Assembly: GCF_009914755.1 (NCBI RefSeq)
Contig: NC_060939.1
From: the human T2T-CHM13v2.0 reference genome, Homo sapiens
Reading direction: 5' to 3' (one strand)
Length of the DNA: 64,000 nt
Position numbers and translations under genes: made by a program. Below the pieces are notes generated by a model that was given only the letters and a program-made list of their open reading frames with translations, was not told the origin of the DNA and searched no databases. Each line of letters begins with the position of its first letter. Positions within the stretch are counted from its first letter, which is position 1. Positions 14,055 to 53,502 of the stretch are shown here, piece by piece.

Positions 14055-17000
14055 GTTTATAAATATGAACCCAACTATTGACTTTCTGCAATTTCACTGC
14101 TGTGTTGTGGTTAAAAGTACCTGGTAAAATTCCTTCCAAAGTGGTTCAAGAGCAATTTTCTACCCTGATAAATAAAATAAATAAAATATTTTAGCCTAAT
14201 GACATCCAAACATTACTTCCTTCTGAGCCCCTAAAGGGCAGATTCTAATTCCATCTATAGTAATATCAGTCAAAATATTCACAAATGCATTCTTCTAAAT
14301 GCCTAATATTTTTACCTAAATAAGGTATCACCAAAAACGTGATGGGTCAATTTATTGAGTTTTAGATAATAGAATATCTCCCCCTAAAAATTGGACAGGG
14401 CAATGGTGTACTTGTGGATACACTGCTTAAGTTCAAAAAATAAAATCAATGGCAGTTCATTGTCATTTGTTGCTAAAAGAATGTGAAAATAACATGAAGG
14501 AAAATTTTTAAAGGAAAAAAGCATTTATAGTTCAATTGCTCTAATGTATCTATTTTTGTTAATATGTCTGTTTCATGTGATTTAATGTTGAACTTGCTCC
14601 CATTTATAGCAAGTTTTCATAATTATCATTCTTAGAAAGCATAATATTTTATTGAACTAACATGCCATGAATTGTGAATTTTTATGTGGGGAGATGAACA
14701 TTGTCCTAGACGAAGGGCCTTCTTTCCAAGAAGCTAAGAGCTGACTAGCAAAAGGGAATTTTCAGAAGGGATATTAGGAGAAAAATGAATGCCTCTACTA
14801 CACAAGAATGACTTCTCACAGAATTTGTACTGTGGCATTCTGGGGTAAGGTTACTGAACACTCCAACACCTTCCTTCCTTCTACCACCAATTTTTTTGAT
14901 GAACATTACAGTTATCCCATTTTTTGTTATAAAATAATATCTCAATAAAATCTCCATAAAGATTTGCCTTGATAATATTTTGCAAACCTGAATTAGGACT
15001 CATCATCTAATCTGAAACAGACTGTCCCAGAAAATACAGAATATAAGAATATGATGTATGTGCAACAATTTTCCTTTCAGATTTTTTGTCTTATAACAGT
15101 TTATTGGGAAAGAGATCATTATTCAGTTCAAAAGGTAGGAATGCATTTGTGAATTGGGGCCTGGACATTCCAGGTAGAACAATTATTTGCTCCTTTGATG
15201 TAAGACAGTATCAAGCTTTTAGTCAATCTTATTAGAACTCTGCCATATCTCTCACTTGTATAGCCGCTGAGGATCTTTCCTGTTTCCATACTCCTTTCCA
15301 GGGTATATGACTTTTAAGTTACCTGAGTTCTGATCAGCAAATGGACTCAGGAAGAACAGGTAGTCAAGGCAGGCAATATTTCCACCACAGTTTCAGAACT
15401 CCCTACTTTGTGGTACTAAGTTAATACATTTGTGCAGCCACTACCTTTTCAAAGGTTTCTTCTTACAACCTCAAATACTATGACTGGTTCACAACCTTTT
15501 CCATAGTGCTAAATTATTTGACCAAACACCGCATATATACCATATTTTTTCAAATCCAAACTGTATCCCAAAGAGAGAGAAGGAGAGAGAAAGAATAGCA
15601 GTAAAAATACAGTGTTATTTCAGGTTGATATTTAAAAACAATTGTGCTGGTTAATGGTTTCCTCGGGGGAAATGACAATTGAAAGTCGGTATTTTCTACT
15701 TTCAAATACAAGTCATGGTGTTTATTCGCTGCCTTTACAACTGAATAGATGGAATTCGCTGAACAAACTTTGATTCTACCCTCAATTACAACTAATTCCC
15801 TCACAAAGCAAAATTTATTTCACAACTAAACATTATGTACATTCAAGATTACTAGAAAACTTAGGACATAAGGTGCAAGTGCGACAATATTAGGAGAAAA
15901 GAAAGAGTGTGTATCAGTTTAACAGGTTTTCACATGCAAATTCACCACCACAGGGTTCGCTGTCTTGGCAACATTGAAAATAATAATAATTAACGTTTTA
16001 AGACACCTATTTTGTGTCAGGCAATGTTCCAAGTCTTTTCTATGTATTATTTTATTTCCTACTTATGAAACCCAAAGAAATTGGGTTGGTATTATTGTAT
16101 CTCTAATTTTTGAAGAGTGAAACAGGCAGAAAAGGTAACTTGCCTAGTTGGAGATGGCATCTGATCTCAGGCAGGCTAACAATGGAGCCCACAGTTTTTA
16201 CTACTATTAGGGGAAAAGACCAACACTATCGAATGAAATAGATTGGATCAAATCTAAGTCACTGATTGTGTGAGCTTATGCAAATTATTTGACCTTTCTG
16301 CCTAGATTTGTTTAGACTATAAAATAGAACTAATGATAATACTTTTGTCAGACAGTGGATTTGATGATTAAATGCGGTAAATCAAGGTAGGATCTTACAC
16401 ATAGTATTTATGGAATCTATTTCAGTTAATATTATTAATGTCTTTCATTTGTAGGGCTCTTCAGCATTTCCCAAACACTTTTCTATAGTTGTTCAGTTCA
16501 TCCTCACAAATTCTGTCATCACACAGTTAAGGTAGACATTCCCATACTCATTTCACTGATGAGATTCAAAGAAATCAAGTATACTGTCCAAGGTCACCCA
16601 TAGTAAGTGAAGGAACCAGTTCTTCTGACTTCAAGTTCAGTAAGAATTCTGCTGTACCATACATCCTATTCTGGGAAATGTGGCTAAGTCCTGTGTAGCT
16701 AACTTCAGAACTACATGGCCATGCAAGCCAAAGAGCTGGATTTACCCCAGAAATGAATACTGTAGAGAAGAAATGAGTGAAGTAGAAGAACTAAGGGATT
16801 TCTTTCCAGTAGTTTTAAGGTAATAACTAGTCAAATTATACAAATATTTATGTAAAACGTATTTCACGTGCAAAATATGTCACTGAGTGAAAATGGCAGA
16901 TCATGAAACAATAGTATTATATAATCTTACACAAACATGAAGTCATGGGATTATGGGTAATTAAGATTCGTTGTTTCCTCTTTTATGCTAATATTTATTT

Positions 17001-17574
17001 CCTAATTTTTCCATGACAAATATGCATTTTTTGTTCAATTTACAAACAACATGGAGTTAACAAAAAATTAGTGTTTACAAATGGATGCATAATTTAAAGC
17101 AATGCTTTTAGACACACCACTTACCCACACTTCCCCTCCACTTTGTGTGTAAGGGAAAGGATAATGCTACTGTCTTTGGTAAGCTTTTACCATGTCTTTA
17201 CAGAGCTTCTCAAGTACTTTTCCATGTGGGGTCACTTTGTGGAGAGGAGTTAATTTGGCACCCTAGTCCTTCTATTTCACTCAGAACCAGCTTTTTCTGC
17301 AAAGGAAAGAGTGGTCCTTGATAGCAAACCCTGGCCTTGTGGTTTTCATTCTAGATGCTTCGAACAACAACAACAACAAAAACAAAAGACAGAGACAGAG
17401 AGAATGGAGGAACATGTCATACAATCAAATGAACCTTCCCAATCAAGAACTTTACCTGGGAACCTCCCATCTACACTTGTACACATCTCTCCCCCCAAGC
17501 TCCCTGCTTACTACTAATACAAGAACCAACTTTAATTAAAAGAGGGTTTGAATTGTTATGTTTTTGATACCTAC

Positions 17575-18470
17575 CTTTTTTTTATTATACTTTGTTTTAG
17601 GGTACATGTGCACAACCTGCAGGTGTGTTCCATATGTATACATGTGCCATGTTGGTGTGCTGCACCCATTAACTTGTCATTTAGCATTAGGTATATCTCC
17701 TAATGCTATCCCTCCCCACTCCCCCCACCCCACAACAGGCCCCGGTGTGTGATGTTCCCCTTCCTGTGTCCATGTGTTCTCATTGTTCAATTCCCACCTA
17801 TGAGTGAGAACATGCGGTGTTTGGTTTTTTGTCCTTGCGATAGTTTGCTGAGAATGATGGTTTCCAGCTTCATCCATGTCTCTACAAAGGACATGAACTC
17901 ATCATTTTTTATGGCTGCATAGTATTCCATGGTGTATATGTGCCACATGAACTCAAACAAATTTACAAGAAAAAAACTAACAACCCCATCAAAAAGTGGG
18001 CAAAGGATATGAACAGACACTTCTCAAAAGAAGACATTTATGCAGCCAAAAGAAACATGAAAACATGCTCATCATCACTGGCCATCAGAGAAATGCAAAT
18101 CAAAGCCACAATGAGATACCATCTCACACCAGTTAGAATGGCGATCATTAAAAAGTCAGGAAACAACAGGTGCTGGAGAGGATGTGGAGAAATGGGAACA
18201 CTTTTACACTGTTGGTGGGACTGTAAACTAGTTGAATCATTGTGGAAGTCAGTGTGGCGATTCCTCAGGGATCTAGAACTAGAATTACCATTTGACCCAG
18301 CCATCGCATTACTGGTTATATACTCAAAGGATTATAAATCATGCTGCTATAAAGACACATGCACATGTATGTTTACTGCAGCACTATTCACAATAGCAAA
18401 GACTTGGAACCAACCCAAATGGCCAATAATTATAGACTGGATTAAGAAAATGTGGCACATGTACACCATG
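17575..18470 (-). mobile_element. L1PA (PA3/4-like), 5'-inverted (twin-primed)
   Basis: Antisense 3' end 17575-17948, then sense ORF2 piece 17949-18470. TSD GATACCTAC at 17566-17574 and 18471-18479. Confidence 0.92.
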
Positions 18471-19402
18471 GATACCTACGTTTTATTTATCTGTGTTTAT
18501 TATAAGAACATATTTTAAACGTTTATCTCTTCCGAGTTTTTATTATGAGCAAACTGGGCACTCATCTCTTTTAAAGAACATAAGCCATTTATCTATCAAA
18601 AGTATATACTACTAGTCATCTTAATAAAAACAGAACCATTTTTAAAAGATAATAATTCAACTATGGCCAAAGAAGCAAAGTATCTATGGTTGGAATAAAT
18701 AATTATTACTTTTTATTAAGTAGTTCAATTACTCCACATTTTACTTAAGTGTTGGAAACTCAAGATCTATCCAGGGACTCAAATTTGCTGCACATAGTAG
18801 ACTTAGATTCAGCTGCATATAATAGAAACTCAAGCTACAGTAATTTATGCAACATAAAGGTTTAGTTTTCTTCTCTCATGCGTGCTTCTAAAGATAATCA
18901 GTCCACTGCAGTCCAGAGGTGGGCAGTGCCAAGATATCATCAGGGACCTAGGCTTCCCTGCCTTTTTGACAAATCTTTTGTAGTATGTGTTTCTTTCCTT
19001 AAGTTCACCTTATTACCTGAAGATGGCTGCTGAAGTGTCAGACAGCGGCAAAACTATATTCCGTTTATATATCGGAACATAAGCATGTCAAATGATAATC
19101 ATCATAAACAGAAGAGACTGCAACATCTAATTTTTTAAACTGGGCACATTCTCAAATTGAATAAAATTGAGGTTGTATTAGTTAGGAAGATAATAAAATT
19201 GGGTGTTAAATATGTAGCTAACAAACTTTGCCACACATGTATTGGGTATAAAATTAAGAAAATGGACATAAGTGATAGAAGTTTAGAAGTAGCCCCTCTT
19301 CTCAAAAGCCTCACTCTAGGAGGTTGATACACCTCTTAAGCAAAACTTTATACCCAAATGAACTGCAAAAGAGACAGAGTTGGTGGATAGAAAAGTTTTT
19401 AA

Positions 19403-20824
<1,422 letters not shown>

Positions 20825-22651
20825 AAAATAAATGCTTGGAACAAGAGATGAGAAAACTATTTTAATGTCTCCAAAGGCAAACTTATGTCATTGTTATTGC
20901 AAGAACAGAACAGAAGCAGAAAAAATATTCAAAAGGGCTTCAGTCAAGTCAAACAAAATATGAATTAGAGTATGGGGACTTTTCTCTCTTTGGGAGATTA
21001 AATTACCAAAACCCTGTTCTGGCTTTGATTTTTTGACTTCCTTCCCAAAAGTTTCCCATTGGCCTGTGTCCTCTGGAAAACAAGATCCGACCATTCAGAT
21101 AAACATCCATCTTTCCTCTTCTCCCTCTATTCCGTAATCCCAACTTCAGTAGGAAGGTCATGTTCCTTCAGCAAGACTGTGGGTCCCTCTTCAATTGTAC
21201 TGCCATAAAGGGAGCACTGGGATGGGGAGGTAGAAATGGAGAGATGATGGGGTGCTCTTACTGCAAGGAAAAAAACTCTCCTGGAAAATGGAGATGGAAC
21301 TTGTTCTTTCAGAGATAGGAGGATATTATACAAAGTTAGTGGGAACTGAAATCCCCAAATCAGGCTGAAAAAGAGGAAATCAAAAATAGAAAAGGTAGCT
21401 GGGAGGGAAAAGGGAGAGAATATGATGCAATTTGGGGAGATGTTAAGAGGTTAACAAAGCACTCTCCTTCTTCCCTAGAAATTCCCACCTGACAGTTAAT
21501 AACAAGGGAGTCACACCTGTGTGTGACAGAGGGCAGCCAATGGCCATTGTGGAGGAAAGAATCACCGAAAAAAAGGCTTTACTCTTGCTGCACGATAAAG
21601 TGGAAAAAAAAATCCTTCCTGAGAAATTTCAACCTTGTCTCTGCTGACTTCCATTTTCTCTGCTCAGAGGTAAACAGCCGCTAGATAAGCCTTGTGGACA
21701 AGGTGGAAGAGCAAGTAAGTAGAAACTGACAGGGCAGAAAGCAGAAATGAAGAATCTCTCACACAGAGAGACTCTGCCCCTCTCCAAGGGAAGCCAGAGG
21801 CTTGAAGCCAGGCAGGGATTAGGTGGCATTTAAGAGGAATCTGTGTGTTAAGACTTGCCACAATTTAACTGCTCAAGTAAGGAGCTGTCATTTGTGGATA
21901 ATGTAAGTATGCTTCAGGTGATACTATCAAACTTGATTTCCTGAAAGCAAAGGACCACTGCATAGCTCAGAATTCTATATTCCTAGGATCTCTACCTCAA
22001 AACCATTGCGTCTTCTTGGTCTGAGATTTACCCCAGCCTCTGAAATCTCCCTGAATGCTAGAATAGAGAGGGAAGCCCAAGAATAACAGGGCATGCTATT
22101 TGACACAGTCAGGGCTCAAGAAACAGACTTTGAAAAATGTGAGGAAATAGCCATGGAAATAGGATGATGGAGCACCAAATGTATTGAATGATATCCACAA
22201 TGAGGTGGATGGCTTTGCAAGGTTGAGTCATCTAGATGATTCATTCCCAGGACCTTCTCAGGCCTCCTCTGAACTTTTCACTGAAATCTGAGGCATGTAC
22301 ACTACTCATGCTCCAGCTCCCTTTGAAGAGACATTATTACTCAATGAAAGGCAGCTTCTGTGCTTCCAGAGCCAGCTTTCTGTGGTCACCCAGCAATGTT
22401 ATCTCAAGAGAAAGACACAGAAATCCATGTCCTTTGATAGAAAATCCTCCTTTGCTCAAGGGCATGAGTTACTGAATAAGTCCAAGGAGGGTGACACTTT
22501 TCATTCTTGTTTGATGTCTGTCATTCTCAGAGCACCAGCCTGATCTGCCTCTTTCCATCTTTTCAGGGACCCAGATAGGGGACACATGATTATTGCTGAT
22601 TTCATAATAGGCAACTGGAGGCTTTACCATGAAAGATGAATAAGTAAACAG

Positions 22652-22891
22652 TGCAACTTGGAGGTAGGGCTGGCCACCTACCACTTGGTGGCCAACGCAG
22701 GGACTGCTCACCTCCTGCTGCTGTTTCTGGAGCCTGTTGATCAGCAGCAGCTGCACAGCTACCACCGCTTTACCCGGTAGCTTCAGAAGGAGGACTATTT
22801 TGATTTACCCCAAGGTGAGGTTGAGTGGGATGCCTTCTGTGAGTGACTTTGGAGAAGGCTAAGGAAAGCCAGATGAGAAAGAGAGGATTAG
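22652..22891 (+). pseudogene. Toll-like receptor 11 (mouse chr14 Tlr11-type) pseudogene fragment: C-terminal part of the TIR domain
   Basis: Manual translation: [76 protein letters not shown]. Collinear with the recalled mouse TLR11 C-terminus ([78 protein letters not shown]). Three in-frame stops, no frameshift. Confidence 0.88.
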
Positions 22892-25800
22892 AAGCTGTGA
22901 GAGGTTTAACCAGGCAGAAATCTCTCCCAGCAGGGGCCTGGATTGCCATCACATCACTGAAGGGAGGGCTCACAAAAGTGGTCTGCAGGCAGTGCTTACT
23001 CCAAGCCCGCTTTTTACACTGAAAATGATAGTTGAAGACAACATATTTGAAAGCACCTGCAAACAAAGTTCTTTCAAAAAACAGTTCTGATACCCTGCTA
23101 GTCCTCTCACACAAGGCATTCCCTTAAAAAAGAATATGCAAAAATGGGTTGGAGAATGCTATGTGCATTTTTCAAAATGAATTCCTTCTGCCTCCACTGA
23201 AAGCAATGTGTTCACTTGTTTGATAAAAAGCTACTTTATTCCAGAGGAATGAGGCAAGAATCAATGAGCTACTTGTCAGTGTTCTAAAGCTAAATTGCAA
23301 ATTCAGAGTTTCTCTAATTCATGAGGTTCTCACAATAGTAGTATTGCATGAGTGAGAACAATAGTTGTGATCCTGTATTACATATGAGGAATCCAAGCAC
23401 ATAAAGATTAGGTGACTTACCACTGTGGCACAGCAAACTGGATCTGGTGCTCATCCTCTGAGTCACAGTCCAGGGCTCTGTACTCTCTACTGTCTTCCGC
23501 TTACCTCCAACTGATGACAGCTTACCTTGCTACGGAGTTAAATGGGCAAAAACGAGGTAAACATCTTAAAAATACACACACGTTATCTATTTCTGAGAAT
23601 ATTTTCACAAATTTACAGAGATTTTGCATAAAATTATAAGTGCCCCCAAACAGAAGGATAAAGTACATTGATAAAAATGGACTATAATGTTCTCATTAAG
23701 AATCATGTTTCAAAGAACACGTAGTGCTATGGGGAAAGACACATGATATATTAAACAAAAGTATTAACAAAACTGCATGCACTACGATTCCAATTTTGAA
23801 AATAATTACATAGATATCTAATATACGAAATACAGAGAAACAGAGGAGGCTAGAAATGGTCTTAGAAATGGTATTGTGGATGATTTAAACTTCCTATACT
23901 TTCCTGTGTTATTATTTTTTTCTAAAATAAGCACATGTTGTTTTCATAATATTAAAATAAATTCTCTTTTGTAAATGGAAACCTTAGTGTAGACTAATTA
24001 GTTTAATTCTCTACTTTTTGTTGGCATGACATGAGCTTGAGAGAAAGTATAAATGTCTAAATCTGGAAAAACACAGCAAAAAAAAAAAAAGGTAAAAAGT
24101 CACTGCAAACAATTTCAGAGACCATCTGTTAGACAAATGGGCCAAAGAGGGCTTCTTTATATAGCCCCCCTAGGGTGTTTACTTCTTTACAGTAAGCTGA
24201 ATCCTGTTAACTCAAATGCCATAGATAAGATAAATTCTGGGGCTGTAAAGACCCCAAGTTGCTGCTGTACTTTGGAGCTCTCTGACACAGAGTCCACACT
24301 GGGCTACTCAGCAACATCACCTAGACAAGCAAATCTCTCTCTTATCGCCCTCTCCCCTGAGCGCTCTCTAGTCCTCCTCCCCTTCTGGATAGAGGCCTGA
24401 TGCCATAGCCTCTGAAAGGTAATGCATTGAGGGACTATCCCTGCATGAAAAGCTATCTAAGCAGCTCCCCCAGGAAAACTGCCACCTCAGGGTCAGCTCC
24501 TCAAGTTTTGGCTCAGAAAGTGAAAGACTTCCACACACATTGCTTCAGGGGAAAAAAAAAATTAGCAATTTATTCCTTAATAGAGTTGGAGTACTTGTAG
24601 TCCTGTGGCATAACCCTGGGACTTTGCTGACCACAAGTCCAGTATTTCATCCCCCCTCCCTTTGTCTGCTGTCAACTAGTGTTCCTTAGAAAATATTATT
24701 ATTGTTATCAATGTTAATAAAACTTCACGTTCTAATTAGCCTTAATATTTTCCATTACAGTTTTTTATGTTGTTGAAATCAACCTGAATGGTTTTTTTCT
24801 TGAAATATCTTAGATCGTATCATGGAATTTCAAGATTGAAAGAAATTTGCATCTGATGCTTAGATACCCTCTCCCACTTTCCCAACCTATATCTGACAAA
24901 AGCAACTGATAGAAAGTATTGTTCTTCAGCTCGTTCCATCATTGCATATATTTCTCTGTTAAAAAGTAAGTCTCCATGATGAATTAAAATGTGTCACCCT
25001 ATAGAATTATAGTAATTCTGTACTTTAGAGATTAAATGGGACAAATTCAATTTCTTTATTAAATAATTACCCTTCATTTGTTTCAATAAAACTTTTTGTT
25101 CTCCAATTTAAATATCCCAATTCCTTCTACTGTTACTCATTTTCCGTACTTCTAAGTCCCCTCTAGTTGTTCTTCGCCAAATTCACTATAGTTTGACAAT
25201 GTACTTCTTAAGTGAAACTAAAATGACAAATTCATGAAACAAGTGGGCAAATAGTTTAAAGTTAAGTACCACTAAAACAGATATTGATCCAAAAATCTCA
25301 ACATAAGTACAGAACCCTTGGGGCTGGCACATGTGCAGAATTGTAGAAAGAAGGGAAGAGATAGATAAGCCTTTGAAGCGTTTTGTAAATTCTTTGCCAT
25401 AACTGACTTCTGTCTTTATATCCTTGGACTTCATAGAACCCCTTGTTCTTACATTTTCAGTCCTAAATCCAGTATCATCTATTTTGTGGGAAAACATAGC
25501 TATGTTAGTATAAAAACATATATCAAGGCTTCCAATTATATTTGATATTCTGATTCAGGCTTAAGGTCAACTGATTATTCAGATTAGACCCAGGCCTCAT
25601 CATCTTTCCCTTTTTCCCTAAAGGCTGAACCAATTAAGATCTCAGTTAAGAAACACTTTTTGAGATCTTCCCAAAACTTTCTCACTGTTATCCCTAGATG
25701 AGTCCACTTGGAAATGTTGGATGATCCAGAAGGGTCAAAAATAAACCTTGGCACATTTATTTAAAAATGAAGCAGGTGGAGACTGGAGGTCAGCAGTGAA

Positions 25801-43950: not shown

Positions 43951-44919
43951 ATGAGTGTCATAGAAGCCAATAACATTTCTGGGCCTGTGAGTGAATTTAT
44001 CCTCCTGGGCTTCCCCTGCCTGCTGCAGGGAGACCAAGATCCTCCTCTTTGTGGTCTTCTCCCTCATCTACCTTCTGACCCTCATGGGTAACACATCCAT
44101 CATCTGCGCTGTGTGGTCAAGCCAGAAACTCCACACACCTATGTACATCCTCTTGGCTAATTTCTCTTTCCTGGAGATCTGCTGCATTAGTTCTGATGTC
44201 CCAAAATGTTGGCCAATCTCATCTCCCATATCAAGAGCATCTCCTATGCTGGCTGCCTGCTCCAGTTCTTCTACTTCTCCATGTGTGCTGCAGAAGGCTA
44301 CTTTCTGTCTGTGATGTCCTTTGATCGGTTCCTTACCATCTGTCGACCTTTGCATTATCCCACAGTCATGACTCACCACCTGTGTGTCCGATTAGTGGCC
44401 TTCTGCAGGGCAGGTGGTTTTCTATCCATACTGATGCCTGCAGTGCTTATGTCCCGAGTGCCTTTCTGTGGCCCTAACATCACTGACCATTTTTTCTGTA
44501 ACCTGGGACCATTGCTGGCACTGTCCTGTGCCCCAGTTCCCAAAACTACTCTGACTTGTGCTACAGTAAGCTCTCTCATCATCTTCATCACCTTCCTCTA
44601 CATTCTTGGGTCCCATATCTTAGTTTTGCGAGCTGTTCTGTGGGTCCCAGCTGGCTCAGGCAGGAACAAAGCTTTCTCTACATGTGCTTCCCATTTCTTG
44701 GTTGTTTCTTTCTTCTATGGCTCAGTCATGGTGATGTATGTGAGTCCAGGCTCCAGGAGCCGCCCTGGGACACAGAAATTTGTGACATTGTTTTACTGCA
44801 CAGCAAACCCATTCTTTAATCCCCTGACCTACAGTCTCTGGAACAAAGATATGACAGATGCCCTTAAAAAAGTGCTGGGAGTGCCATCAAAAGAAATATC
44901 TTGGAACACACTGAAATGA
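43951..44919 (+). pseudogene. Olfactory receptor family 11 (OR11J-like) pseudogene
   Basis: MSVIEANNISGPVSEFILLGFPC...LHTPMYILLANFSFLEI...MSFDRFLTICRPLHY...KAFSTCASH...PFFNPLTYSLWNKDM. +4 nt at ~44015-44022 and -1 nt at ~44201-44205; the ATG frame stops at 44089-44091. Splice acceptor ttccttcatag at 43931-43941. Possibly OR11J5P or a paralogue (unverified). Confidence 0.93.
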
Positions 44920-52111: not shown

Positions 52112-52580
52112 TGCTATCCCTCCCCCCCCAAACCCACAACAGGCCCGAGTGTGTGAAGTCCCCCTTCCTGTGTCCAAGTGTTCTCATTATTCAATTCCCA
52201 CCTATGAGTGAGAACATGCGATGTTTGGTTTTTGTCCTTGCGATAGTTTGCTGAGAATGATGGTTTCCAGCTTCATCCATGTCCCTACAAAGGATATGAA
52301 CTCATCATTTTTTATGGCTGCATACTATTCCATGGTGTATATGTGCCACATTTTCTTAATCCAGTCTATCGTTGTTGGACATTTGGGTTGGTTCCAAGTC
52401 TTTGCTATTGTGAATAGTGCTGCGATAAACATATGTGTGCATGTGTCTTTATAGCAGCATGATTTATAGTCCTTTGGGTATATACCCAGTAATGGGATGG
52501 CTGGGTCAAATGGTATTTCTAGTTCTAGATCCCTGAGGAATCGCCACACTGGTTCAATCGACAGTGTGGCGATTCCTCAG
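52112..52580 (-). mobile_element. L1PA fragment inserted in the OR C-terminal coding tail, with a short 5' inversion
   Basis: Antisense L1 3' region 52112-52551; inverted copy of L1 sequence 52562-52580. TSD-like AGAAATTTC at 52075-52083 and 52579-52587. Confidence 0.88.
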
Positions 52581-53502
52581 AAATTTCTTTAGTGCCTCTT
52601 TCATATCCTTGTTCCGGAAACTGTAGATCAGAGGATTAAAGAATGGAGTTGACAAAGTATAGAACAAGGTCGCAAATTTCTTTATCCCATGATAGTCCCC
52701 AGAACCTGGGCTAACATACATCACCATAAGAGAACCATAGAAGAGAGACACTACAGCAAGGTGACAGCCACAAGTTGAGAAAGCCTTATGCCTTCCTAAG
52801 CCTGAAGGCACCTGTAGCACTGTGCTTAGAACACAGAAATAAGTCCCAAGGATATACAAGAAGGTAAGAAAGATGATGAGAGCACTAATGATACCACAAG
52901 TCAGAGTAATTCCAGGTATTGGAGCACAAGACAGTGCCAGCAAAGGTGCCAGATCACAGAAAAAATGGTCGATAGTGTTTGGACCACAAAAGAGCACCTG
53001 AGATATTAGTGTCAAAGGGGTCAATAACCAGAGACAGCCACCCACCCAGCAGAAGATCACAAAAATGAGCACAAACGTGATGGGTCATTAAGGTGGGATA
53101 GTGCAAAGGTCTACAAATGGCAGGAAACCTATCAAAAGACATCACTGACAGAAATAAGCACTCTGCAGCACACATGGAGAAGAAGTAGAACCGGAGCAGG
53201 CAGCCAGCACAGGAGATGCTCTGTGTCTGGGAGATGAGATTGGCTGCCATTATGGGCACGTCAGAACTGACACAGCAGATCTCCAGGAAGGAGAAATTGG
53301 CCAGTAGGATGTACATAGGTGTGTGGAGTTTCTGGCTTGACCACACAGCACAGATGATGGATGTGTTACCTAGGAGGGTCAGAAGGTAGATGAGAGAGAA
53401 GACCACAAAAAGGAGGATCTGGATCTCCCAGCGGCAGGGGAAGCCCAAGAGGATGAACTCATTCACAAATCCAGTGATATTAGTAGTCTCCAAGGTCCTC
53501 AC
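52554..53502 (-). pseudogene. Olfactory receptor family 11 (OR11J-like) pseudogene
   Basis: (GTG)RTLETTNITGFVNEFILLGFPC...LHTPMYILLANFSFLEI...MSFDRFPAICRPLHY...KAFSTCGCHL...PFFNPLIYSFRNKDMKEALKK. Start codon is GTG; one +1 frameshift in the A5 run at 53061-53065. Acceptor cctctacag lies just upstream (53512-53520). Possibly OR11J2P or a paralogue (unverified). Confidence 0.93.

What the first reader, a model, noticed from the sequence alone, without database searches (positions are those of the whole stretch)
22652..22891. Hidden human relic of Toll-like receptor 11 (TIR-domain C-terminus) beside OR11J-like genes
Seen: a + strand frame missed by the ORF track translates to [76 protein letters not shown]. 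It has three premature stops (22778, 22844, 22874), no frameshift, and a terminal TAG at 22889-22891. Knowledge (recalled): this aligns almost gap-free, at roughly 70-75% identity by my count from memory, with the C-terminus of mouse TLR11 (MGI Tlr11, chr14), including the position of the native stop. TLR11 and TLR12 together sense Toxoplasma profilin. Mouse Tlr11 lies in the chr14 olfactory cluster near Or11j genes, which matches the OR11J-like neighbours here. The commonly cited human pseudogene (TLR12P, chr1) belongs to the other paralogue, and the chr14-type gene is often treated as absent in humans. Inference: this is the syntenic remnant of that lost innate-immune receptor, carried in a pericentromeric duplicon and possibly unannotated.
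Basis: partly seen in the sequence, partly recalled or inferred. Interest (0 to 1): 0.92.

Follow-up and report, generated by a model that had tools for sequence, protein, structure and literature searches.

The report
Human relic of lost TLR11 receptor
Human chromosome 15 carries two identical copies of a broken 240-base tail of the gene for the parasite-sensing immune receptor TLR11, a gene one review calls entirely absent from our genome; it is likely a dead leftover that could help date when our ancestors lost this sensor.

Summary
Confirmed. Window 22652-22891 (+) encodes the last 79 codons of mammalian TLR11 (NCBI naming; the mouse chr14 gene, called TLR12 in Toxoplasma papers), with three premature stops. 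It is 59-76% identical to TLR11 proteins (mouse 57/78, tarsier 55/79) and 38-49% to TLR12. A tree places it inside TLR11 (99/94), and the chr1 pseudogene inside TLR12. Only about 9% of the coding sequence survives; the ectodomain, transmembrane helix and first half of the TIR domain were not found in CHM13. A second, identical copy at chr15:18.908 Mb keeps the ancestral neighbourhood: an OR11H-like gene upstream on the same strand, as in squirrel and tenrec gene models. The window's copy is a secondary mosaic joined to 14q32-derived DNA. Conserved columns have decayed as much as in TLR12P (5/37 vs 46/399). Tarsier and ring-tailed lemur keep full-length models, so loss likely came after the tarsier split. 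Best reading: a dead in-place deletion remnant moved to 15q11.2; a 5'-truncated retrocopy is a minor rival. No report was found in ten searches, and two papers list the gene as absent. It corrects the record but is not a new system.

The parts
22652..22891 (+). TLR11 relic: last 79 codons (C-terminal half of the TIR domain and tail) plus the native stop; matches tarsier TLR11 residues 844-922 of 922
22778..22780 (+). Premature TAG at a Trp that is invariant in the 35 TLR11 proteins compared
22844..22846 (+). Premature TGA (column mostly Gln; Arg in tarsier)
22874..22876 (+). Premature TGA (column mostly Gln; Arg in lemur)
22892..24090 (+). Sequence after the stop, likely former 3' UTR or flank (inferred, not aligned to any orthologue). 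It ends in TATAAA (24048) and a 13-A run (24078-24090), followed by an 8-of-9 repeat of 22644-22652
14180..22651 (+). 14q11-derived upstream flank. It continues the sequence downstream of the OR11H-like gene seen in copy 2; no TLR11 coding remnant was detected in it
17566..18479 (.). L1 insertion with an inverted part (family recognised from sequence, not named by a call), flanked by a 9-bp target-site duplication at 17566 and 18471. The chr14 and chr22 paralogues examined stop matching at its end (18454)
19539..20841 (+). L1 3' fragment flanked by a 17-bp target-site duplication at 19539 and 20825, so the flank is continuous across it
   Evidence: masked 19534-20868 in the hub table
14169..14180 (.). 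Duplicon junction: 14q32-derived DNA (93% to chr14:100.49 Mb) on the left, 14q11-derived DNA on the right
20849..23529 (-). Terminal exon of lncRNA LINC01193, which contains the relic in antisense
   Evidence: hub annotation table
43951..44910 (+). OR11J5P, downstream neighbour; also beside copy 2
   Evidence: hub table
52556..53501 (-). OR11J2P, downstream neighbour; also beside copy 2
   Evidence: hub table

Best explanation
This is the last 79 codons of the mammalian TLR11 gene, broken by three stops, and it is likely the dead remnant left in place when a deletion removed the front 91% of the coding sequence in a simian ancestor. Shown: the TLR11 identity, the three stops, the absence of the rest of the gene from the CHM13 searches, two chr15 copies, an OR11H-like gene upstream on the same strand in copy 2, and decay of conserved columns. 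Inferred: the gene died after the tarsier split, roughly 30-45 million years ago and at about the same time as its partner TLR12; the olfactory-cluster block holding it was copied from the 14q11 fission region to 15q11.2; the chr14 and chr22 copies lost the TLR11 side at an L1; and a recent duplication inside 15q11.2 made the window's copy and joined it to 14q32-derived DNA. It would make no protein: it has no start, no ectodomain or transmembrane helix, no first half of the TIR domain, and a stop after 42 codons. It is transcribed only as an antisense passenger of LINC01193, as far as the annotation shows.
For: Identity is 59-76% to 38 of 38 TLR11-labelled proteins and 38-49% to 18 of 18 TLR12-labelled proteins. 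Tree: inside TLR11 at 99/94 and inside a boreoeutherian subset at 100/95; the AU test rejects relic+TLR12 at p=0.026. The chr1 locus is about 72% to TLR12 and 42-49% to TLR11. Genome searches with squirrel, tarsier and TIR-only queries find TLR11-level matches only at the two chr15 places. The two relics have 0 differences in 240 bp. Synteny: a squirrel 'TLR11' model (P0005) starts with 91 residues of an olfactory receptor; of the 8 receptor loci it hit in 200 kb around copy 2, the best (80-88%) lies about 7 kb upstream of the relic on the same strand, and the others scored 33-73%. A tenrec TLR11 model carries that receptor's start (score 52, highest of 100 shuffles 42). Both intervening L1s have target-site duplications. 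Decay: 5 of 37 conserved columns changed, against a median of 2.7% and a maximum of 10.8% in 35 intact orthologues; TLR12P 46 of 399; Fisher p=0.79. Full-length tarsier, Lemur catta and colugo models exist and no simian was named among 66 hits. The 14-to-15q11 duplication is dated before the human-orangutan split (PMC3814877).
Against: No genomic DNA of a species with intact TLR11 was available, so the upstream flank was never aligned to an orthologous locus and the deletion is inferred. No N-terminal remnant was detected upstream (12 proteins against 2 regions; 2 of 24 tests had p<0.05, at different places). A 13-A run 1.19 kb downstream and an 8-of-9 direct repeat at the 5' junction (p 0.03-0.045, post hoc) look like a truncated retrocopy. 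The tree rests on 79 columns, used the simpler model and gave a long-branch warning. The decay interval is wide (4.5-29%), and stops are denser than in TLR12P (3/79 vs 7/842, p=0.047), so TLR11 may have died earlier. Searches used a stricter first look that can miss weak matches, and the absence of simian proteins is weak evidence.
Confidence: 0.88

Rival explanations
1. A 5'-truncated processed copy of a TLR11 mRNA, inserted by L1 machinery, whose parent gene was later deleted completely.
For: Homology starts abruptly at 22652. A TATAAA hexamer (24048) and a 13-A run (24078-24090) follow 1.19 kb after the stop, and only 3 plus-strand runs of 12 or more A occur in the 64 kb window. An 8-of-9 (10-of-13) direct repeat brackets the unit, p 0.03-0.045 against random anchors.
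Against: It sits where the parent should be: just downstream of an OR11H-like gene on the same strand, as in squirrel and tenrec models. No other parent remnant was found in CHM13. A random insertion beside its own parent is very unlikely (inference). The repeat is A-rich and was chosen after looking.
Confidence: 0.08
2. A fragment of TLR12 or of another TIR gene, duplicated from chr1 or elsewhere.
For: Significant similarity to TLR12 C-termini (E 3e-12 to 4e-7 among the labelled ones), and the names TLR11 and TLR12 are swapped in part of the literature (PMC5214937).
Against: TLR11 identity is about 25-30 points higher; tree and AU test; the DNA search finds no chr1 match.
Confidence: 0.01
3. 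The relic has been kept for a new job, as an antisense element in the LINC01193 transcript or as a short TIR-like peptide.
For: It lies inside an annotated terminal exon (hub table). The reading frame has no indel, and the two copies are identical over it.
Against: Invariant columns are hit as in neutral decay. There is no in-frame ATG between the upstream stop and the relic, and identity between copies is just as high in the flanks (2 differences in 3,001 bp). The longer ORF P0007 exists only when TGA is read as Trp.
Confidence: 0.03

Closest known systems
Mammalian TLR11 (NCBI/MGI Tlr11, mouse NP_991388, chr14; called TLR12 in PMC5214937)
   Same: 73% identity to mouse, gap-free, same C-terminal tail, same olfactory-cluster neighbourhood as far as gene models show
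   Different: Only 79 of about 925 codons remain, with three stops; it lies on 15q11.2 in two copies and cannot form a receptor
Human TLR12P (chr1p35.1; the 'human TLR11 pseudogene' of the immunology literature)
   Same: Dead human member of the same receptor pair, with similar decay at conserved columns (11.5% vs 13.5%)
   Different: TLR12P is near full length, single copy and annotated, and belongs to the other paralogue
Fragmentary TLR11 pseudogenes of Mongolian gerbil and sand rat (PMC7046166, passages)
   Same: TLR11 reduced to short fragments with stops after loss of the whole subfamily in a lineage
   Different: An independent rodent loss; not reported as moved by segmental duplication
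15q11.2 pericentromeric duplications of the 14q11 olfactory-receptor cluster (PMC3814877)
   Same: Same transported block; OR11 and OR4-type genes with 95-96% paralogues on chr14 and chr22
   Different: The main text has no occurrence of 'TLR'; here chr15 keeps a piece that the chr14 site lacks

Membership tests
TLR11 orthologous group (mouse chr14 gene) | Best protein hits are TLR11, clearly above TLR12 | tested here: met
   59-76% vs 38-49%
TLR11 orthologous group (mouse chr14 gene) | Reciprocal: TLR11 queries find this place as their highest-identity human match | tested here: met
   68-73% at the two chr15 places vs 31-51% at chr1. By bit score the longer chr1 pieces rank first for the two full-length queries
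TLR11 orthologous group (mouse chr14 gene) | Falls inside the TLR11 clade | tested here: met
   99/94 support; AU p=0.026 against joining TLR12; 36 rows, 79 columns
TLR11 orthologous group (mouse chr14 gene) | Conserved neighbourhood in the OR11/OR4 cluster | tested here: met
   Indirect: chimeric squirrel and tenrec models and the order around copy 2. Mouse gene order itself was not seen
Functional Toll-like receptor | LRR ectodomain, transmembrane helix and complete TIR domain | tested here: not met
   Only residues 844-922 of tarsier TLR11 match; Pfam TIR not scored
Functional Toll-like receptor | Open reading frame | tested here: not met
   Three stops in 79 codons
TLR12 orthologous group | Best hits and clade are TLR12 | tested here: not met
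   the chr1 locus meets it
Unprocessed, in-place (unitary-type) pseudogene | No intact copy elsewhere in the genome | tested here: met
   (one haploid assembly; stricter first look)
Unprocessed, in-place (unitary-type) pseudogene | Flanks collinear with the intact locus at base level | not testable with these tools
   No eukaryotic genome other than CHM13 is held
Processed pseudogene | Poly(A) tail and target-site duplication | tested here: inconclusive
   13-A run and 8-of-9 repeat, p 0.03-0.045, post hoc
Processed pseudogene | Inserted away from the parent locus | tested here: not met
   Lies in the expected parent neighbourhood

The most novel reading that the evidence does not exclude
[quoted passage not shown] It survived only because the 14/15 fission region was copied to 15q11.2. 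With TLR12P it shows that both halves of the Toxoplasma-sensing heterodimer were lost together on the simian stem, while tarsiers and lemurs kept TLR11, and its three stops and deletion junction are markers that can date and order that loss across primate genomes.
Probability: 0.55. Interest if true: 0.6.

Novelty: new member of a known kind. Interest (0 to 1): 0.5.

Why it matters
Humans sense Toxoplasma differently from mice, and the loss of the TLR11/TLR12 pair is the standard explanation. A review states that the mouse chr14 gene is entirely absent in humans, that both genes are non-functional in all primates, and that the reason for the loss is unclear (PMC5214937). A vertebrate survey lists human TLR11 as '-' (PMC6946030 Table S2). 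The relic corrects the first statement; full-length tarsier and lemur models (predicted annotations already public) contradict the second. It gives dated markers for asking which partner died first. It also marks a piece of the hominoid 14/15 fission region that survives on chr15 but not at its chr14 site. It is not a new mechanism and most likely does nothing today.

Tried and rejected
Pfam scan of the relic and three upstream-extended frames: no TIR hit. Search for other TLR11 pieces in the window: none at E<=0.01 for any of 68 proteins, apart from olfactory-receptor hits of the chimeric squirrel model. Search for a retained TLR11 start upstream: the LEALP-like motif at 22615 scored at chance level (p=0.33) and I rejected it. 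Search for short primate ORFs matching the relic (43-139 aa): 1 candidate, none significant, so no monkey or ape stops could be compared. The expected chr14 site (6 kb) and one chr22 paralogue (4 kb): no TLR match, and homology to the window ends at 18454; the other two chr14 paralogues were not read, but the DNA searches found no match there. P0007 (192 aa, 97% to the window) rejected as a protein: it needs TGA read as Trp. Literature searches: searches returned 0 papers, three, one, two; some searches were read only as listings (30 of 64, 30 of 359, 30 of 115, 25 of 348, 40 of 61), and searches were swamped by unrelated papers. No listed title or abstract opening describes this locus. Roach et al. 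2005 was not available, nor the supplements of PMC3814877; either could mention it. No structure prediction was run, because the sequence evidence was decisive. No language-model atlas comparison was obtained.

Full report
Observation. Read with X at the stops (P0001), it hits five TLR11-type proteins at E 1.9e-31 to 5.1e-28 and 72-76% identity over its whole length; the sixth of 6 hits is a near-self ORF call, P0007. It does not score Pfam's TIR models and matches PDB TLR1, TLR6 and TLR10 TIR domains only weakly (E 0.005-0.03).

Which paralogue. A search with squirrel TLR11 residues 700-926 returned 66 proteins. I labelled 38 as TLR11 and 18 as TLR12; five of these labels are mine, by similarity rank, for proteins named only 'TIR domain-containing'. 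The relic is 59-76% identical to the 38 (mouse NP_991388 57/78, tarsier 55/79, lemur 54/79, colugo 57/79) and 38-49% to the 18. The alignment ends on both last residues in 29 of 38; mouse ends one residue earlier. The tree used 36 rows (19 of the 38 TLR11, 12 of the 18 TLR12, two unnamed proteins, bird TLR13, the relic and a chr1 piece) and 79 columns under LG+G4. The relic falls inside TLR11 (99/94) and inside a boreoeutherian subset (100/95); the chr1 piece falls among TLR12; the AU test rejects relic+TLR12 at p=0.026. The tool warned that long branches meet. The chr1 locus at 33.33 Mb is about 72% to TLR12 and 42-49% to TLR11 in the TIR region. Naming is swapped in part of the literature: PMC5214937 (passages) calls the mouse chr14 gene TLR12 and the chr4 gene TLR11.

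What survives. No other TLR11 piece is in the window. Whole-genome searches with squirrel TLR11, tarsier TLR11 and a TIR-only protein give TLR11-level identity at two places only: chr15:19,676,643-888 (+, this one) and chr15:18,907,873-8,118 (-). The first two used a stricter first look; the third scored 27 of 27 candidates. A 3-kb DNA query also finds only these two. They are identical over the relic and differ at 2 of 3,001 bases around it. The relic covers tarsier residues 844-922 of 922. It lacks the ectodomain, the transmembrane helix and the first part of the TIR domain, which by general knowledge holds box 1 and the BB loop needed for adaptor binding.

Neighbourhood. In 200 kb around copy 2 the order along chr15 is OR11J pair, relic (-), an olfactory pseudogene at 18.915 Mb (-), another at 18.937 Mb (-), then five OR4-type genes (+). 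The names OR11H, OR11K, OR4M and OR4N that I use for these are recalled from their sequences; only OR11J5P and OR11J2P come from the hub table. A squirrel model named TLR11 (P0005) is a chimera of 91 olfactory-receptor residues and the TLR11 3' part. Of 8 receptor loci hit, its receptor part matches best the 18.915 Mb gene (80-88%; others 33-73%), which lies about 7 kb upstream of the relic on the same strand. A tenrec TLR11 model carries the start of the same kind of receptor (score 52; highest of 100 shuffles 42). So TLR11 follows an OR11H-like gene in two distant mammals and the relic does too. The mouse order (Or4q3, Tlr11, Or11j4) is recalled and untested. The OR11H-like gene and 4.2 kb downstream have four paralogues at 95-96%, three on chr14 and one on chr22; none carries the relic. 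In the two I read, homology ends at the edge of an L1 (window 18454). In the window that L1 and the next one have target-site duplications (17566/18471 and 19539/20825), so chr15 keeps the ancestral continuity. The window's copy lacks the OR11H-like gene: at about 14170-14180 it joins DNA 93% like chr14:100.49 Mb. PMC3814877 (passages and sections 5 and 9; supplements not available) reports that the hominoid 14/15 fission fell in an olfactory cluster and that 14q11 DNA was duplicated to 15q11 before the human-orangutan split.

Decay and date. Of 37 columns at least 90% conserved in 35 TLR11 proteins (three dropped as gapped or low quality), 5 are changed in the relic. Intact orthologues show a median of 2.7% and a maximum of 10.8%; tarsier and mouse show 0 of 37. 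TLR12P shows 46 of 399 against 21 TLR12-type proteins (median 3.7%), using 842 columns kept by a local-identity filter; Fisher p=0.79. Stops are denser in the relic (3/79 vs 7/842, p=0.047). With recalled rates (about 2.2 non-synonymous sites per codon, 1.1-1.3e-9 substitutions per site per year), the TLR12P excess gives roughly 30-45 million years; the relic agrees but its interval is wide (4.5-29%). Tarsier (922 aa), Lemur catta (929 aa) and colugo (925 aa) have full-length models, and no monkey or ape is named among the 66 hits. No primate TLR12 was returned either, so the partner's state in tarsier and lemur is open. A search for short primate ORFs found nothing.

Mechanism. Shown: identity, stops, truncation, two copies, neighbourhood, decay. 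Inferred: loss after the tarsier split, an in-place deletion ending at about 22651, transport to 15q11.2, loss of the TLR11 side from the chr14 and chr22 copies, and a recent intra-15q11.2 duplication. No upstream coding remnant was detected. Against this reading, a TATAAA and a 13-A run lie 1.19 kb after the stop, and an 8-of-9 repeat brackets the unit (p 0.03-0.045, post hoc). That is what a truncated retrocopy would show. I give it 0.08 because a retrocopy would have had to land in the parent's own neighbourhood. The relic lies antisense in the last exon of LINC01193 (hub table); nothing here suggests it is selected.

Novelty. The RefSeq table has no row for it. [quoted passage not shown] PMC6946030 (passages; supplement searches and part 4) lists human TLR11 as '-' in Table S2, though that survey kept only full-length genes for analysis and may have ignored fragments. 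PMC10998774 (passages) says only a TLR12 pseudogene is annotated in humans. PMC12377914 (passages) repeats that one of the pair is completely lacking, and PMC2691675 (passages) calls TLR11-13 non-primate. PMC7046166 (passages) describes similar fragments in gerbils. Ten searches, five seen only as partial listings, showed no report of this locus. Roach 2005 could not be read, and GENCODE, pseudogene.org and chain or TOGA data could not be checked. A simple tblastn finds the relic, so a database mention is quite possible.

Verdict. Real, correctly identified, and probably unreported in print. It is a new member of a known kind, a gene-loss relic, that corrects a repeated statement and makes the timing of TLR11/TLR12 loss testable. 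Interest 0.5.

Noticed in passing
G000:C15:18,907,873-18,908,118 (-); loci L002, L014, L019: Second copy of the relic, identical over 240 bp, in the more complete ancestral olfactory-cluster context; this is the better locus to annotate.
   Followed up: yes
window 17947-20442 vs L020/L019: Copy 2 lacks about 1,970 bp present in the window between two L1 pieces that share a 526-bp, 94% identical stretch, consistent with an L1-L1 recombination deletion.
   Followed up: partly
window 14169-14180: Sharp junction between 14q32-derived DNA (also at chr15:17.90 Mb) and 14q11-derived DNA.
   Followed up: partly
P0011, P0015: Full-length TLR11 gene models in tarsier and ring-tailed lemur contradict the printed statement that all primates lack functional TLR11/12; they are predictions and transcription was not checked.
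   Followed up: partly
P0007 vs window 22205-22777: An ORF call (14 member sequences, 113 contigs) that reads TGA as Trp across the junction. It differs from CHM13 by one in-frame extra residue and one substitution, so other assemblies carry variant copies.
   Followed up: no
G000:C1:33,327,899-33,330,574 (L004, L005): TLR12P in CHM13 has 7 stops in 842 aligned columns and several frame changes, more than the 'three stop codons' quoted in PMC5214937.
   Followed up: partly
G000:C4:157,004,142-157,004,576 and C4:189,424,032-189,424,649: TIR-region matches with stops inside: one about 25 kb from the intact TLR-like match at C4:157.03 Mb, the other possibly only an intron-containing gene. The first may be a TLR2-type duplicate pseudogene (name recalled).
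   Followed up: no
window 20861-20866 (-): An ATTAAA hexamer on the minus strand just before the annotated 3' end of LINC01193 (20849), next to the L1 target-site duplication (read).
   Followed up: no
P0005, P0042: Public TLR11 models of grey squirrel and lesser hedgehog tenrec are chimeras with a neighbouring olfactory receptor, likely annotation errors but useful as synteny markers.
   Followed up: yes
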